This document shows positions 3,791-12,845 of a DNA stretch of 15,420 bases, piece after piece. Where the stretch lies: IMG/VR virus record IMGVR_UViG_2547132271_000004, one strand, 5' to 3'. Each line of letters opens with the position of its first letter. Position 1 is the first letter of the stretch. The position numbers and the translations under genes are program-made. This DNA is from a virus (lineage: Duplodnaviria; Heunggongvirae; Uroviricota; Caudoviricetes). The notes beneath the pieces are model-generated. The model searched no databases and was not told the DNA's origin. It saw only the letters and a list, made by a program, of their open reading frames with translations.

Positions 3791-3856
3791 TACTAATTCC
3801 TGTTACTAGTTGATAATAAATAAGTTTTTAAGAATGCATAAATTAAAAACCTCAAA

Positions 3857-3880
3857 ACTGACCACACAACTGACCACACA
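3857..3880. repeat. Perfect tandem duplication of the 12-mer ACTGACCACACA
   Basis: Read directly: ACTGACCACACA at 3857-3868 and again at 3869-3880, immediately upstream of a CGAACAA-rich stretch. Confidence 0.9.
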
Positions 3881-4260
3881 TTTCGTTGAAGCTCTACGAA
3901 CAACGACGAACAATAACAAACAAAAGGGAAATTTGCTGGGGGTTTTGCGTAACCGTTATCATTTTCCGGCTATCCGTCATGAAGCTGGTGGATGATCTGC
4001 GTGGTGATTTCCACCATTCAGAGCAGGGGCGGTCATCATGACCATGCCATAACAAAAACCCCATATTCGTGGGTTTTCTGTGTTGTGGCTATTCTGCCGT
4101 TGCCGTGCTGGTGGATATTTCCGGTATGTGGCTCACCATATCGGCATCAGGCCCACCAGCGTGAAGCGTTTTTCATTTTTCGCGGGTATAAAAAATCGAT
4201 GGGGCTGGCAGTCCGGAAGACGTCAGGGTACAGAGATTTGACCCGCCCCTCCCTGTGCAT

Positions 4261-4468
4261 GAGCACAATAAGTAACCGAAGGCGGAATTCCGCCCTCGGT
4301 GCTCACATATGAGAAACGATATTTCTTACACCGATACCCTTTATTTGGGTATCGCGAGTAAGCCCCAAAATCTGGGTGTTACTCTTACTACCCAAACTAC
4401 GGGTAGTTTCATAGTCGAGTTGCAGATCTGCAACTCGCCACCAGTTGCTAAGTGCATTTTTGCACTTT
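4261..4468. other. Cluster of five consecutive, sequence-distinct stem-loops in non-coding DNA downstream of the packaging operon
   Basis: Inverted repeats read directly: CCGAAGGCGG/CCGCCCTCGG around a GAATTC centre (4277-4300); CGATACCC-N7-GGGTATCG (4332-4354); ACTACCC-N7-GGGTAGT (4387-4407); perfect palindrome CGAGTTGCAGATCTGCAACTCG (4416-4437); AAGTGCA-TTTTT-TGCACTT (4450-4468). Confidence 0.6.
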
Positions 4469-4484
4469 CGGTAATATCAACCAG

Positions 4485-4775
4485 TTACCGCCGTAAGTGC
4501 TCCGGCTTCCTCCACTGGTAAGTATTTTTCGCGCTCTCCCTCCGTTGTTGAGAACGGCGACGGTATGCCAGCAACTCAAGAACTCTGGTTCGTATGTTGC
4601 GCATATCCACGCCGTTAAGCTCAATACCGTCACGGCGCATTACCTCAGCCACCACACGCGCGTAATTTTCGGCTATCACGCTGTCCGGCTGTGTAGCCTG
4701 TTCGTCAGGCTGCTGACTGATTCCGGTAATGCGGCGAATTATTTTTAGTAGATCAGTTTCAGTCATTCTCGTCAT
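4485..4775 (-). CDS. Hypothetical small basic protein, translationally coupled to TerL
   Basis: 96-aa ORF whose ATG overlaps the TerL stop (ATGA). The C-terminus is Arg-rich. No family recognised. Confidence 0.5.
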   Translation of the reverse strand: MTRMTETDLLKIIRRITGISQQPDEQATQPDSVIAENYARVVAEVMRRDGIELNGVDMRNIRTRVLELLAYRRRSQQRRESAKNTYQWRKPEHLRR

Positions 4776-6433
4776 ACCCCATCAAATGCCGCAAGTCGCT
4801 CTTTCTGGCTGTCGCTCATATCAAATGCAAATTCCTCATGCTCAGCCTGGAATGTGCCAAACGCCATCAGCGCCGCAACGCTCGGGTCTATCTTATTGGA
4901 TGATTTTTTCTTGTTCGGCTTGATATTGGCGTTCGCGTCACTCTGCATCACAACATTACTCATTGACCAGGCCAGCACCGGATCACCACGATGAACAATC
5001 ACCTTCCGGTTAACAAAAACTTCGAACGATTTCGCCGCCGGACTAAAACGAAGGTACGTTTGCGGGAACGGCTCCACCTCAAATCCCGCTCCCTGTAGCT
5101 GCGTCCTCAGGTGCGTGGCGTTCCATGTATCGAAACCCACCAGCCTGATATTGAAATTCTCTGCATCCGCCATGATGTCATCACGGATACGGTCATAATC
5201 AATGCAGTCACCCGGTGTTGTGCGTATCCAGCCCGCCTTTGCCCACTGGCGATAGATGGCGCGGTTTTTATTGGCAGGGTTCTGTAGCTGAAATTCCGGT
5301 AGATAGTGACGTGAAACCAGCATAATCTTTTTACCGACCGGAAAGGCATAGCACACGCTGGAAATATCGCTGGTTGATGATAAGTCCAGCCCCGCATAGC
5401 ACTCCTGCCCGTATAAATCCGCCTCAGCGAACGTTCCGGCGCACTCCGCCCATGCACCGTTACCCATCCACGGCGTAGCCCCCTGACACCAGATATTGAA
5501 TCGCTTGGTGAGCATTTCCACCCACTGCGACGGAATACCCCGCGCTTTCTGGATGGTTGAGGCAAGTTTTTCACGATCGACGGAAACATCGATATTGGGA
5601 TTCGCCTTTATCCACATCGCCGGATCGTCAACCTCGCTTTCATCATCCAGCTCGTAAATCAGTACGAACATGGATTCGTTCACCTCTTCACCATCCAGTA
5701 TCTGGCAGCAATAGTCGTAGTGTTGTTTACAGGCTGAAACAACGTTGCTCCCCGATGTGGTGATGGCAAATAACAGCCCCTCCGGACGCGCCCCCATCCC
5801 CAGTTCAAGTGCGGAATAAACCCCGTTGTCTGGGTGCAGGTGATATTCATCCACAATGGCAAGACTCGGGTTTGTCCCCTCAATGGTTGCCGCTTTTGCT
5901 GCCAGTGGCTTTAACAGGCTGTTGGTTTTCGGGTGTATCACCTTGTGCGCCTGAATATTTACCCGCTTTCGTAACGGTCGGGATAAAAGGCACATCTGAC
6001 GCGCATCATCAAACACGATCCGCGCCTGATCACGACTCACGGCGGCGGTGTAAATATCCTGCTGCCCGTTTTCCATAACCAGAAACCAGTTAGCCAGGAT
6101 AGCGGCGACCGTGGATTTGGCATTTTTTCGCGGTACTTCAATGAATGCGCTGGTGTATTTGCGCCGTCCGGTGGCCTTAACCTTAAATCCCAGGATGCAG
6201 GCAAAGGCGAACTGCTGCCACGGCTCAAGTTCAATGGGGCTACCGCGCATTGCGCCTTTTACGTGCGGGCACACCCGGGAAAAGGCAATAAACCGCTCCA
6301 CGACCTCCGGATCGAACGTGTAAAGGGAGTTTTCAAGGTCAGAAAAATACCGTTTAACAGCCTGTTTCAGTCGTTTACAGGCCGTAATTTTGCCGTTTTT
6401 TACGCCTTCTGCGTACTCATGCCAGGCGGTCAA
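4772..6433 (-). CDS. terL: Terminase large subunit
   Basis: 553-aa ORF with an N-terminal ATPase region (Walker A-like VPRKNAKST) and a C-terminal nuclease-like region. It overlaps the TerS 3' end. Confidence 0.9.
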   Translation of the reverse strand: MTAWHEYAEGVKNGKITACKRLKQAVKRYFSDLENSLYTFDPEVVERFIAFSRVCPHVKGAMRGSPIELEPWQQFAFACILGFKVKATGRRKYTSAFIEVPRKNAKSTVAAILANWFLVMENGQQDIYTAAVSRDQARIVFDDARQMCLLSRPLRKRVNIQAHKVIHPKTNSLLKPLAAKAATIEGTNPSLAIVDEYHLHPDNGVYSALELGMGARPEGLLFAITTSGSNVVSACKQHYDYCCQILDGEEVNESMFVLIYELDDESEVDDPAMWIKANPNIDVSVDREKLASTIQKARGIPSQWVEMLTKRFNIWCQGATPWMGNGAWAECAGTFAEADLYGQECYAGLDLSSTSDISSVCYAFPVGKKIMLVSRHYLPEFQLQNPANKNRAIYRQWAKAGWIRTTPGDCIDYDRIRDDIMADAENFNIRLVGFDTWNATHLRTQLQGAGFEVEPFPQTYLRFSPAAKSFEVFVNRKVIVHRGDPVLAWSMSNVVMQSDANANIKPNKKKSSNKIDPSVAALMAFGTFQAEHEEFAFDMSDSQKERLAAFDGV

Positions 6434-10797: not shown

Positions 10798-11083
10798 GAA
10801 GGTTTTCTCGTATTGGTTAAGATTCAGGACGTGAAACCAACACGGGGGGAGCGCCGCCCGACACTCTCGGCATCTCGCAGATCAACCCGGCATCGCGCAG
10901 GGGGTCAGGCGGCATTGTGGCGGCTCACGTCTGAGTGCCACGCTCCAACATATACATAAAAATCAGTATGTAAACACCTGTCAGTCAGACCGAACAACCA
11001 CGAAAGAACACGAACAAATAATTTACAAAAGAAGTAAACCATGGCCTATTATTGCTGTCTCTGACTACAACAAAGGACGCATC
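10798..11083. promoter_or_regulatory. Divergent control region between the capsid operon (minus) and the plus-strand cargo gene
   Basis: 286-bp gap with a GC-rich segment (10840-10940), an inverted repeat TACATA-N8-TATGTA (10953-10972), CGAACAA repeats (10991-11017), and a weak sigma70-like TTTACA ... TATTAT (11022-11052) upstream of the 11084 ATG. Confidence 0.4.
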
Positions 11084-11590
11084 ATGAATTTAAGCGCAAT
11101 GGTATACCCTGATACTTTCATAATTAATGGCGAATCATTCAGAGGTAAAAGAAACGCAAAAGAAAACAAGGTATTAATTCCATATACAAATGAACCGGAA
11201 GTAACTATTGGTCAACACATTATCCAGCGTGTCGGTAAAAACGAGATAAATCTAAAAATTATAGATATGAAGTTGCTTCCCAATGTAACCCGCAGACAGG
11301 GAACCAATCATCAAAATATGTTGACTCTCTATATTGAAAATATCACGGGAAATGAACATATGACGCCAACTAAAAGTAATACATTTAACATTGGTTCAAT
11401 TAGTGGTGATCAAGTGCAGATAGGTGAGCATAACCATATGCTGGTAAACATCAGCATCACTGAACTGGTTGAAAAAGTCGCTAAATCGGGGGATGTACAA
11501 GCCAAATCAGTATTAAAGCAGTTACTGGAAAACAGTACCGTTGCCAGCATTGTTGGGGCTGGCGCAAGTGCCCTAATAGGCTTACTGTAA
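11084..11590 (+). CDS. Hypothetical AT-rich cargo protein with C-terminal hydrophobic Gly/Ala-rich segment; function unknown
   Basis: 168-aa ORF with RBS AGGA before the ATG and its own terminator. It is the only plus-strand gene in the island and is visibly AT-rich relative to flanking genes (not computed). C-terminus STVASIVGAGASALIGLL is hydrophobic. No family recognised. Confidence 0.7.
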   Translation: MNLSAMVYPDTFIINGESFRGKRNAKENKVLIPYTNEPEVTIGQHIIQRVGKNEINLKIIDMKLLPNVTRRQGTNHQNMLTLYIENITGNEHMTPTKSNTFNIGSISGDQVQIGEHNHMLVNISITELVEKVAKSGDVQAKSVLKQLLENSTVASIVGAGASALIGLL

Positions 11591-11627
11591 AAAAATGGCC
11601 TGGATTTTACCAGGCCTTTATTATTTT
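11591..11627. terminator. Bidirectional intrinsic terminator
   Basis: AAAAA-T-GGCCTGG-ATTTTA-CCAGGCC-TTTATTATTTT; a GC stem flanked by an A-run and a T-run, placed between the convergent 11084-11590 (+) and 11626-11922 (-) genes. Confidence 0.7.
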
Positions 11628-12603: not shown

Positions 12604-12832
12604 CTTCACCTGTTCACCTTTTGATATTTTCCATTTAAATTCATACTGTTAAGGGGTGAACAGTTTCACAAAAACTATTCACCAACTGTTCACCACTGTT
12701 CACCCTTGAAGCTCAATAAACAACCAAAAAGGTGAACAGTGAATAGTTTGGTGAACAGTTCATAAATAACTGTTCACCCTATAATATACTGATATAAAAG
12801 ATAATTATGACAGGGTGAACAGTGGTGAACAG
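12604..12832. repeat. Iteron-type replication origin: about nine copies of GGTGAACAG in both orientations flanking an AT-rich segment
   Basis: GGTGAACAG or its complement CTGTTCACC read at about 12611, 12655, 12686, 12696, 12731, 12750, 12770, 12814 and 12824. AT-rich spacer ATAATATACTGATATAAAAGATAATTATGA at 12781-12812. It sits immediately 3' of the primase-helicase gene. Confidence 0.7.
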
Positions 12833-12845
12833 TTATTCAATAAGT

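What the first reader, a model, noticed from the sequence alone, without database searches (positions are those of the whole stretch)
11084..11590. Lone AT-rich, opposite-strand cargo gene wedged between the replication and capsid modules
This is the only plus-strand gene in an otherwise uniformly minus-strand satellite. It is strongly AT-rich compared with its neighbours, has its own RBS and a dedicated bidirectional terminator, and sits on a divergent control region shared with the capsid operon. The 168-aa product has no motif I can place; it has a probably beta-rich N-terminal part and a C-terminal helix ending in a hydrophobic Gly/Ala-rich tail (STVASIVGAGASALIGLL) that could anchor in or disrupt membranes. 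In P4-like satellites and PICIs, variable AT-rich cargo at fixed positions often encodes anti-phage or helper-interference functions. This is therefore my best candidate for an undescribed single-gene defense or exclusion effector, but the function is not established by the sequence.
Basis: partly seen in the sequence, partly recalled or inferred. Interest (0 to 1): 0.75.

Follow-up and report, generated by a model that had tools for sequence, protein, structure and literature searches.

The report
RHIM-like membrane-tail cargo gene in satellite
A small accessory gene in an E. coli phage satellite encodes an undescribed modular protein: a swappable front domain, a conserved motif resembling the amyloid "RHIM" switch of animal cell-death signalling, and a greasy membrane tail, which makes it a testable candidate for a self-triggering anti-phage suicide protein.

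Summary
ORF 11084-11590 (+, 168 aa) is real, AT-rich (GC 0.377 against 0.51 for the island), has an RBS and ends at a bidirectional terminator.

The island is a capsid-forming PICI (cf-PICI), about 14.9 kb, inserted between thiM and rcnR. The gene is cargo: closely related islands have the slot empty, or filled with other genes. The slot matches a published PICI immune hotspot next to pri.

No Pfam, NCBIfam or PADLOC family matches the protein above threshold, and it is not Tai.

The new finding is its architecture:
- an N-terminal beta-barrel (residues 1-92);
- a stretch (residues ~100-124, core VQIGEHNHM) that is the most conserved part, yet AlphaFold leaves it unstructured;
- two amphipathic helices;
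- an uncharged small-xxx-small (glycine-zipper-like) hydrophobic C-terminal tail.

This C-terminal module, always at the protein's end, is joined to at least 19 unrelated N-domains. Sequence searches link the motif to RHIM in both directions. Pfam RHIM is the top family for the module proteins, and one homolog passes the curated cut-off. The module profile retrieves RIPK1/RIPK3 RHIM fibril constructs as 7 of its 10 PDB hits.

Best reading (about 0.45): a sensor-switch-effector protein that oligomerises, possibly as an amyloid, and damages the membrane to abort phage infection. The function is untested.

The parts
11084..11590 (+). Cargo CDS, 168 aa (RefSeq WP_001053662.1, 'hypothetical protein'); stop codon included
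   Evidence: PHROG phrog_5789 (unknown function) full length, E 3e-83; 93 homologs
11073..11077 (+). Shine-Dalgarno-like AAGGA, 6 nt upstream of the ATG
   Evidence: sequence
11084..11359 (+). N-terminal beta-barrel domain (residues 1-92). It evolves faster than the rest and is the putative sensor
11381..11455 (+). RHIM-like motif region (residues 100-124, TFNIGSISGDQVQIGEHNHMLVNIS). Core VQIGEHN = residues 111-117 (11414-11434)
   Evidence: I103, Q112, G114 and N117 invariant. pLDDT <50 in the full-length model and 55-67 in the module-only model, with no secondary structure. Pfam RHIM is the only hit: 15.4 bits for the protein, 18.2 bits for the motif alone. The module profile retrieves RIPK1/RIPK3 RHIM constructs
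11456..11533 (+). Two amphipathic helices (residues 125-150)
   Evidence: AF2 helices 125-135 and 138-149, pLDDT 85-92; hydrophobic moments 2.34 and 1.47
11537..11587 (+). Uncharged hydrophobic C-terminal tail TVASIVGAGASALIGLL (residues 152-168) with small-xxx-small spacing (A154, G158, S162, G166)
   Evidence: KD mean 1.91 over 17 aa; the best 19-aa window elsewhere in the protein scores 0.56. The small-xxx-small-xxx-small pattern occurs in 171/189 module proteins. There is no charge in the last 16 aa in 143/189
11597..11616 (.). Bidirectional intrinsic terminator hairpin between the cargo gene and the convergent 98-aa gene
11032..11616 (.). Approximate extent of the cargo cassette (GC 0.385). 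It is absent from otherwise near-identical islands
   Evidence: alignment A3; the D8 match is 556 bp shorter; GC
10798..11031 (.). Conserved island backbone between the capsid start and the cassette. It includes a GC-rich structured leader of the capsid operon and ends in CAAATAATTTACAAAA

Best explanation
The gene is accessory cargo in the mid-island hotspot of a capsid-forming PICI. It encodes one member of an undescribed modular superfamily built as sensor, switch and effector.

- Sensor: the N-terminal domain, here a 92-residue beta-barrel, is exchangeable and probably recognises a trigger such as a phage protein.
- Switch: the central RHIM-like motif (phi-Q-phi-G-x-x-N, flanked by short beta-prone segments) is unfolded in the resting monomer. 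It drives cooperative, possibly amyloid-like and self-templating, oligomerisation once triggered.
- Effector: oligomerisation clusters the two amphipathic helices and the glycine-zipper-like hydrophobic C-terminal tail. The tail then inserts into and permeabilises the inner membrane, and the infected cell dies before phage release (abortive infection).

In related islands a tail-less paralog (about 255 aa) carrying the same motif is encoded immediately upstream. It may act as a separate trigger or template.

Shown: cargo status, domain architecture, modularity, conservation pattern and sequence similarity to RHIM.
Inferred: amyloid formation, membrane damage, phage sensing and defence.
For: Cargo and hotspot:
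- The slot is empty in D8 and ATCC 43886, and differently filled in N64.
- The gap between the 98-aa gene (p98) and the capsid gene ranges from 243 bp to about 1.9 kb, with unrelated genes, across 80 capsid-anchored loci. Only 6 of the 80 carry this module.
- 45 of 55 IMG/VR loci with the gene are cf-PICI-like, with the capsid gene divergent next door.
- A protein with another N-domain but the same module (P0090) sits in the same slot of another island.
- A distant homolog sits in the moron slot between Rz and the terminase genes of a lambdoid phage.
- He et al. 2024 showed experimentally that this kind of PICI region carries immune genes.

Modularity:
- A profile search of 1.84 billion proteins gave 236 hits. 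Many match only profile positions ~90-168.
- The module ends within 10 residues of the C-terminus in nearly all of them.
- At least 19 unrelated N-domain clusters carry it.

Switch:
- The motif is the most conserved part, yet AF2 leaves it unstructured in two independent runs.
- phi-Q-phi-G-x-x-N occurs in 168 of 189 module proteins, against 9 of 9,798 unrelated ORFs.
- Pfam RHIM is the only hit for the window protein (E 0.014). It is the top family for module-only proteins (13 of 48, best E 4.4e-5). P0223 reaches 21.0 bits against a curated cut-off of 20.
- In the reverse direction, the module profile searched against 177,635 PDB sequences returns RIPK1/RIPK3 RHIM fibril constructs as 7 of its 10 hits.
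- There are weak hits to EAD10, which Kaur et al. found as the N-terminal adaptor of TPR-GreA/B-C-PIN proteins, the architecture of Agp, whose N-terminus carries the BASS11 amyloid motif.
- The 255-aa neighbour shares only the motif region with the 168-aa protein.

Effector: hydropathy and small-xxx-small statistics for the tail.

Defence company: neighbours in chromosomal contexts match PADLOC candidate families PDC-S31 and PDC-S60 and a subtilase model.

Precedent: Bab/Agp in E. coli uses a shared amyloid motif to activate a small membrane-targeting Abi effector (10.1101/2024.11.07.622273).
Against: - The window protein's own RHIM score (15.4 bits) is below Pfam's cut-off of 20. The best PDB E-value is only 0.13.
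- The strict G-phi-Q-phi-G signature shared by RHIM, PP and BASS3 is present in only 9 of 189 members. The window protein reads G-D-Q-V-Q-I-G.
- The motif is internal, not at a protein terminus. No NLR or TPR-GreA/B-C-PIN partner is present.
- The neighbours in Pseudomonas, Xanthomonas and Shewanella lack the motif.
- Short Q/N/G-rich motifs can converge. Low pLDDT does not prove amyloid.
- The tail is short for a membrane span: 17 residues, with KD mean 1.48 over 19 aa.
- The protein matches no PADLOC model, and no phenotype data exist.
- No promoter was identified.
Confidence: 0.45

Rival explanations
1. A membrane-anchored exclusion or interference protein that works without amyloid and without killing the cell. 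The tail anchors the protein at the inner membrane. The motif is just a beta-hairpin used for ordinary oligomerisation. The N-domain blocks an incoming or developing phage, by stopping DNA entry or an assembly step, as Sie or Tai-type proteins do.
For: - Tail-anchor-like C-terminus.
- Moron or hotspot positions identical to those used by Tai and other single-gene systems.
- RHIM similarity is sub-threshold for the window protein.
- The N-domain resembles small barrels of phage neck and tail-completion proteins.
Against: - Not homologous to TaiEcA: BLASTP E 0.067, hhalign probability 0.13%.
- The extreme conservation of an AF2-disordered Q/N/G motif across at least 19 N-domain families, and its reciprocal retrieval of RIPK1/RIPK3 RHIM, are not explained by a plain linker.
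- Foldseek finds no significant structural relative.
Confidence: 0.2
2. A satellite life-cycle factor. The N-terminal barrel mimics a head-closure, stopper or adaptor protein. It manipulates helper heads or tails so that the tail-stealing cf-PICI wins the competition for tails.
For: - The gene lies next to the capsid operon.
- cf-PICIs depend on helper tails, and their adaptor and connector proteins set tail specificity (10.1101/2025.02.11.637232).
Against: - The gene is absent from closely related islands, including some with >=95% identical flanks.
- Homologs occur in chromosomal islands and prophages without cf-PICI genes.
- The same slot holds the same module with unrelated N-domains.
Confidence: 0.1
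3. A non-defence moron: a small membrane protein that alters host physiology (envelope stress, fitness, addiction or stabilisation of the island) with no link to phage.
For: - Morons at these positions have many functions.
- There is no hit to any defence model.
- No phenotype is known.
Against: - It recurs in immune hotspots and next to PADLOC candidate families.
- A fast-evolving, swappable N-domain joined to a conserved effector-like module is the usual signature of conflict systems.
Confidence: 0.15

Closest known systems
Bab/Agp amyloid-signalling Abi system of E. coli ECOR25 (BASS11 motif; Ibarlosa et al. 2024, bioRxiv 10.1101/2024.11.07.622273)
   Same: - An E. coli mobile-element defence locus.
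- A small protein (109 aa) that combines a short conserved amyloid-forming motif with a small helical, membrane-targeting domain carrying a hydrophobic helix.
- The motif is shared with the product of the adjacent gene. Here this holds only in related cassettes (255 aa + 169 aa).
- Module proteins give weak hits to EAD10, the N-terminal adaptor domain of TPR-GreA/B-C-PIN proteins such as Agp.
   Different: - The domain order is inverted: motif first, then the helical part with the hydrophobic helix at the C-terminus.
- A sensor-like domain is fused in the same polypeptide, and there is no TPR-GreA/B-C-PIN partner.
- The spacing of the conserved residues reported for BASS11 (I87-G88-S89-V90, Q92, D99, N100) does not line up one-to-one with the motif here.
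RHIM (Pfam PF12721) of RIPK1/RIPK3/ZBP1/TRIF, with its fungal PP and bacterial BASS3 relatives (Dyrka et al. 2020)
   Same: - Core phi-Q-phi-G followed by N at +3 and a hydrophobic residue at +5.
- Flanking short beta-prone segments rich in N, S and G.
- Disordered as a monomer.
- Reciprocal profile hits.
- Associated with cell-death or immune contexts.
   Different: - The strict G-phi-Q-phi-G signature is mostly absent (9 of 189).
- BASS3 was described at the C-terminus of Bell domains and the N-terminus of NLRs, in multicellular Actinobacteria and Cyanobacteria. This motif is internal, sits in front of a tail-anchor-like helix, occurs in unicellular Gammaproteobacteria and lies on satellites and prophages.
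- Homology versus convergence is unresolved.
Tai (tail assembly inhibition) single-gene systems of PICIs, P4-like satellites and prophages (He et al. 2024, PMC11364771)
   Same: - A single gene missed by DefenseFinder and PADLOC.
- Carried in the PICI accessory region next to pri, and upstream of the packaging module in lambdoid prophages.
   Different: - No sequence relationship to TaiEcA.
- TaiEcA is a 204-aa protein without the motif or the hydrophobic tail.
HET-S/HET-s and NWD2 of Podospora anserina (as summarised)
   Same: - An amyloid motif controls a latent membrane-targeting domain.
- A partner that carries the motif but has no killing activity acts as a template. This is comparable to the tail-less 255-aa paralog.
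   Different: - No HeLo or Bell domain.
- The effector here is only two amphipathic helices plus a 17-residue tail.
- Everything about templating is inference.

Membership tests
RHIM / BASS3-type amyloid signalling motif | Pfam PF12721 match at or above the curated cut-off (20 bits) | tested here: inconclusive
   Window protein 15.4 bits (E 0.014), isolated motif 18.2 bits (E 0.0018): below the cut-off. Homolog P0223 reaches 21.0 bits, above it. 13 of 48 module-only proteins hit at E<=1, best E 4.4e-5.
RHIM / BASS3-type amyloid signalling motif | Central G-phi-Q-phi-G signature (Dyrka et al. 2020) | tested here: not met
   The window protein reads G108-D-Q-V-Q-I-G114, so phi-Q-phi-G is present but the first G is displaced by two residues. 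The strict signature is found in 9 of 189 module proteins. phi-Q-phi-G-x-x-N is found in 168 of 189.
RHIM / BASS3-type amyloid signalling motif | Motif at the C-terminus of an effector and the N-terminus of an NLR encoded by the adjacent gene | tested here: not met
   The motif is internal (residues 100-124 of 168). There is no NLR in the window or in related loci.
RHIM / BASS3-type amyloid signalling motif | Same motif in the products of adjacent genes | tested here: inconclusive
   Not in this window, where the gene is solo. It is met in the related two-gene cassettes of Klebsiella, E. coli N64, Winslowiella and others, where the ~255-aa neighbour carries TFNI...[VA]Q[FL]G[TS]xN. Another partner type (201 aa, N-terminal TM helix) lacks the motif.
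RHIM / BASS3-type amyloid signalling motif | Forms cross-beta fibrils or behaves as a prion-forming domain | not testable with these tools
   The only indirect evidence is conserved sequence left unstructured by AF2 in two runs. No multimer prediction or experiment was available.
Bab/Agp (BASS11) system | TPR-GreA/B-C-PIN sensor encoded next to a Bell-like effector | tested here: not met
   The neighbours are the capsid gene and a 98-aa gene. No such protein is in the island.
Bab/Agp (BASS11) system | Sequence match to EAD10 (Pfam PF19954), the N-terminal adaptor domain of TPR-GreA/B-C-PIN proteins | tested here: not met
   3 of 46 family members and 3 of 48 module-only proteins give weak hits (best E 0.0096, 16.4 bits against a cut-off of 24.1). 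The window protein gives none.
Capsid-forming PICI (host element) | Integrase, primase-type replication gene, HK97-type capsid, protease, portal, head-tail connector, HNH, TerS and TerL; no tail or lysis genes; flanked by att repeats | tested here: met
   Pfam, PHROG and RefSeq annotation. 70-nt direct repeats 14,910 bp apart.
Accessory (hotspot) cargo of the island, as opposed to core gene | Presence or absence and replacement among islands with the same backbone | tested here: met
   51 of 5,426 complete E. coli genomes hold the full region.
Tai systems | Homology to TaiEcA (phi80 orf63) | tested here: not met
   BLASTP E 0.067; hhalign probability 0.13%.
Known or candidate defence systems in PADLOC-DB v2.0.0 | Match to any of its 5,027 models | tested here: not met
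   No hit at E<=1 for the protein or E<=0.01 for the 255-aa partner.
Phage head-tail connector proteins (head-closure, stopper, adaptor) | Sequence or confident fold homology, and a place in the structural operon | tested here: not met
Tail-anchored membrane protein | Single hydrophobic segment at the extreme C-terminus, and no signal peptide | tested here: inconclusive
   KD mean 1.91 over the last 17 residues but 1.48 over 19. The N-terminus is not hydrophobic. No dedicated TM predictor was available.

The most novel reading that the evidence does not exclude
The protein is a one-polypeptide, prion-like abortive-infection device. A phage-sensing domain nucleates a RHIM-type amyloid. The amyloid templates all other copies in the cell and converts a latent C-terminal glycine-zipper helix into a membrane pore.

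That would put RHIM-type amyloid death signalling, so far known from animals, fungi and multicellular bacteria, into unicellular Gammaproteobacteria. It would be spread by phage satellites and prophages as a plug-and-play module with interchangeable sensors.
Probability: 0.3. Interest if true: 0.88.

Novelty: new variant of a known kind. Interest (0 to 1): 0.72.

Why it matters
If the reading holds, it matters in three ways.

1. It would add a widespread, compact family to bacterial immunity: 236 representatives at 50% identity clustering, with at least 19 sensor types.
2. It would show that RHIM-like motifs are not confined to multicellular organisms, which bears on the origin of necroptosis-type amyloid signalling.
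3. It would offer a 168-residue, single-gene, E. coli-native system for studying how an amyloid switch is kept silent and then fired.

Even if the amyloid part fails, the work still defines the variable hotspot of capsid-forming PICIs between the replication and capsid modules, and a new candidate effector module for defence-gene discovery.

Tried and rejected
Rejected readings:
- Known families: Pfam, NCBIfam and PADLOC give no match at or above a curated threshold for the window protein. PHROGs gives only an unannotated family.
- Tai: rejected by direct comparison with phi80 orf63.
- L1R_F9L, HEAT and AARP2CN weak Pfam hits: treated as noise, being sub-threshold and inconsistent across members.
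- Obligate partnership with the upstream gene: rejected. The solo arrangement is the commonest. The neighbours in Pseudomonas (HEPN RiboL-PSP-like), Xanthomonas (DUF2971) and Shewanella (DUF4062) lack the motif and sit 78-506 bp away.
- Interference with eukaryotic host RHIM signalling: considered unlikely. There is no secretion signal, and homologs occur in environmental Shewanella, Xanthomonas and Pseudomonas.
- ncRNA in the region: none found by Rfam.
- Holin or lysis role: the architecture is atypical and the gene is not conserved among islands.

Dead ends:
- The afdb50 fold library was unavailable.
- A plus-strand sigma-70 promoter was not found by the scan. By eye, TTTACA (11022-11027) pairs with TATTAT (11047-11052) only with a 19-nt spacer.
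- Papers citing WP_001053662, WP_000365446, WP_244565340 or phrog_5789: none found.
- The Bab sequence could not be retrieved, so BASS11 was compared only through the residues named in the preprint.
Full report
**1. Observation**

ORF 11084-11590 (+) exists as stated: ATG start, 168 aa.
- AAGGA lies 6 nt upstream of the ATG.
- GC is 0.377 for the ORF (GC3 0.357), against 0.51 for the rest of the island and a GC3 of 0.551 for the capsid gene.
- The hairpin at 11597-11616 scores as an intrinsic terminator on both strands, with dG -16.6 kcal/mol and z -4.65.
- The gene is under purifying selection. Against homologs 61-77% identical in protein, pS is saturated at 0.7-0.8 while pN is 0.10-0.37. The N-terminal half changes about three times faster than the C-terminal half: pN 0.36 against 0.10.

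**2. Context**

Pfam, PHROGs and the RefSeq annotation of the near-identical (99.7%) region in E. coli SMS-3-5 show the gene order. In the window, all on the minus strand, are TerL, TerS, HNH, head-tail connector, portal, HK97 protease, HK97 capsid, then this gene, then a 98-aa gene, SSB, an 81-aa gene, a D5-type primase and DUF4222. Beyond the window come Icd-like, HTH, DUF6387 and the integrase.

70-nt direct repeats 14,910 bp apart bound the element between thiM and rcnR. There are no tail or lysis genes. This is a capsid-forming PICI of the kind studied by the Penades group, not a P4-like element. The first ~3.85 kb of the window is chromosome.

**3. Cargo, not core**

- Megablast of the region finds 156 E. 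coli genomes, but only 51 of 5,426 hold most of it.
- Islands with 95-97% identical flanks lack the gene (D8), and ATCC 43886 also has the slot empty. N64 carries a different plus-strand pair of 254 + 169 aa there.
- The alignment shows an identical backbone up to about 11031 (…CAAATAATTTACAAAA). After that the cassette, including its hairpin, is present or absent.
- In 80 capsid-anchored loci from other species, the gap between the 98-aa gene (p98) and the capsid ranges from 243-269 bp (empty) to about 1.9 kb. The contents are unrelated: a 257-aa TM protein, a 344 + 173 aa pair, an Hcp-like protein plus a 201-aa protein, a 228 + 140 aa pair in Xenorhabdus, and a DUF2971-like protein. Only 6 of the 80 carry this module.
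- Conversely, 45 of 55 IMG/VR loci that carry the gene are cf-PICI-like with the same divergent arrangement.
- He et al. 2024 showed experimentally that PICIs keep an immune-gene region next to pri, and that phages keep the same genes upstream of the packaging module. A distant homolog of our protein (26% identity, full length) lies in exactly such a position, between Rz and the terminase genes of a lambdoid phage.

**4. What the protein is**

No Pfam family matches at E<=0.01, and there is no NCBIfam or PADLOC family. PHROG 5789 has no annotated function. No paper in the searched library cites its accession.

AlphaFold2 with 46 homologs gives three parts:
- a confident beta domain (residues 1-92, pLDDT 81-92);
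- an unstructured stretch (93-122, pLDDT <50);
- helices at 125-135, 138-149, 151-157 and 160-167.

The last 17 residues, TVASIVGAGASALIGLL, are uncharged. Their Kyte-Doolittle mean is 1.91, and small residues recur every fourth position.

**5. The unexpected part: a conserved, disordered motif**

The AF2-disordered stretch is the best conserved part of the family. I103, Q112, G114 and N117 are invariant, and G104, G108 and V111 are nearly so.

Its core, VQIGEHNHM, has the form phi-Q-phi-G-x-x-N-x-(M/L). From memory, that is the form of the RHIM core of RIPK1 and RIPK3. The tool outputs confirm the RIPK1 sequences IFNSSGIQIGNHNYMDV and YNSTGIQIGAYNYMEI.

Tests:
- (a) At E<=10, Pfam returns RHIM as the only family for the protein: 15.4 bits, E 0.014. 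The isolated motif scores 18.2 bits. Both are below the cut-off of 20.
- (b) 9 of 46 family members hit RHIM.
- (c) Among 48 proteins that share only the C-terminal module, RHIM is the top family (13 of 48, best E 4.4e-5), and P0223 passes the curated cut-off at 21.0 bits.
- (d) In the reverse direction, a profile of the module searched against all 177,635 distinct PDB sequences returns ten hits at E<=10. Seven are RIPK1 or RIPK3 RHIM fibril constructs, including the top four (best E 0.13). Individually these are weak. Collectively they are highly specific.
- (e) phi-Q-phi-G-x-x-N occurs in 168 of 189 module proteins, against 9 of 9,798 unrelated ORFs.
- (f) A second AF2 run on a module-only, more diverse alignment again leaves the motif without secondary structure (pLDDT 55-67). 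The helices reach 83-92.

Caveats:
- The strict G-phi-Q-phi-G signature shared by RHIM, PP and BASS3 is present in only 9 of 189 proteins.
- The motif is internal rather than terminal.
- Convergence cannot be excluded.

**6. A mobile C-terminal module**

The profile search of 1.84 billion representatives gave 236 hits (100 at E<=1e-10). Many match only profile positions ~90-168. The match ends within 10 residues of the C-terminus in nearly all of them.

By BLAST clustering, the parts in front fall into at least 19 unrelated groups. These include a Zn-ribbon, DUF2513-like winged helices and several unknown domains. This is a lower bound, because only the best 150 hits were returned.

The module alignment shows four elements:
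- a first beta-prone segment (x-N-I-G-x-I/V);
- the phi-Q-phi-G-x-x-N core;
- a third segment (I/V-x-I-x-I/L);
- then LVExIxxSxDxEAKxxLKxLLENxTVASxxGAGxSxLLxLL.

One such protein with another N-domain (P0090) occupies the same cf-PICI slot.

**7. Two-gene versions**

In Klebsiella, E. coli N64, Enterobacter soli, Winslowiella and others, a ~255-aa gene lies 3-29 bp upstream.
- Its product aligns with the 168-aa protein only over the motif and first helix: residues 95-137 against 170-210. It carries TFNIDTVNS..[VA]Q[FL]G[TS]xN.
- In these cassettes it has lost the hydrophobic tail. Stand-alone relatives (P0151, P0196) keep it.
- Adjacent genes whose products share a short motif are the hallmark of fungal and bacterial amyloid signalling.
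- A second partner type (201-217 aa, with an N-terminal TM helix) has no motif.
- The solo form, as in this window, is the commonest.

**8. Other contexts**

- Pseudomonas: at the end of a P2-like prophage, beside a HEPN-like gene and a subtilase.
- Xanthomonas: beside a DUF2971 gene.
- Shewanella: beside a DUF4062 gene.

These neighbours match PADLOC candidate defence models PDC-S31 (E 2e-23), the N-terminal part of PDC-S60 (E 2e-30) and a subtilase model (E 6e-24). They do not carry the motif.

**9. Mechanism proposed**

The precedent is Bab/Agp of E. coli. There a shared amyloid motif lets a sensor convert a 109-aa helical, membrane-targeting protein and cause abortive infection. In HET-S, amyloid folding likewise releases a membrane-inserting segment.

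By analogy, the variable N-domain would sense a phage cue. The RHIM-like motif would assemble cooperatively, possibly templating further copies. The clustered amphipathic helices and glycine-zipper-like tails would breach the inner membrane.

Every step after "architecture" is inference. I put about 0.45 on the overall model, about 0.85 on the RHIM-like similarity being real, about 0.4-0.45 on true amyloid formation and about 0.55 on an anti-phage role.

Rivals:
- a non-lethal membrane-anchored exclusion or interference protein (0.2);
- a neck-mimicking helper-interference factor (0.1);
- a non-defence moron (0.15).

**10. Comparison and novelty**

- It is not Tai.
- It is not a member of any PADLOC, Pfam or NCBIfam family.
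- It does not meet the architectural definition of Bell/NLR BASS pairs.
- It works most like Bab or HET-S, but with the order inverted, the sensor fused, and a much smaller effector.
- A 2026 review still places RHIM-like bacterial motifs only in multicellular filamentous bacteria.

I rate it a new variant of a known kind. It has high test value, because one small gene in E. coli can settle the question.

Noticed in passing
window 10798-10945 (minus strand): A GC-rich stretch just upstream of the capsid start, almost invariant among islands whatever the cargo. It folds stably as RNA (-56.5 kcal/mol, z -3.2) and has no Rfam match. It is possibly a regulatory leader of the capsid operon.
   Followed up: partly
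window 3854-3923; L001 7055-7124 and 21965-22034: 70-nt direct repeats (96% identical) 14,910 bp apart mark the island ends between thiM and rcnR. The first ~3.85 kb of the window is therefore chromosomal.
   Followed up: yes
window 3992-4312 (+) and 4309-4521 (+): Two overlapping plus-strand ORFs (106 and 70 aa) just inside the att repeat. They are not annotated in RefSeq. The 106-aa ORF has no PHROG hit and neither ORF has a PADLOC hit. They could be a second small cargo site or spurious.
   Followed up: partly
window 12749-12769 and 12823-12843 (L001 15950-15970, 16024-16044): Two copies of a 21-nt repeat (TGGTGAACAGTT...) in the AT-rich (GC 0.33) gap downstream of the primase gene. They look iteron-like, so this may be the island's replication origin.
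   Followed up: no
L003 3153-3683 (E. coli ATCC 43886): A ProQ/FinO-family gene is inserted between the 98-aa gene homolog and SSB in an otherwise similar island. This is a second variable spot in the replication module.
   Followed up: no
plasmid records CP018459.1 (16,971 bp) and NZ_CP069874.1 (15,995 bp), Klebsiella pneumoniae: Two 'plasmids' of cf-PICI size carry the homolog. They may be excised circular islands assembled as replicons.
   Followed up: no
L025 4616-5682; L038/L040/L056/L062 (~4400-5580); L018 3085-4642; L042 266-994: Other cargo in the same cf-PICI slot: an Hcp-like 161-aa protein with a 201-aa protein (Erwinia); a conserved 228 + 140 aa pair in Xenorhabdus; a 344-aa protein with a multi-TM 173-aa protein (Citrobacter); and a DUF2971-like protein. 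None was characterised here.
   Followed up: no
L078 5106-5715 (Photorhabdus temperata): The homolog is split into 102-aa and 58-aa ORFs, apparently a pseudogene broken just before the motif.
   Followed up: no
L152 44365-44979 (phi80 orf63 = TaiEcA): The TaiEcA sequence contains R-N-D-L-A-H. From memory, this fits the HEPN Rx4-6H motif. It was not tested.
   Followed up: no
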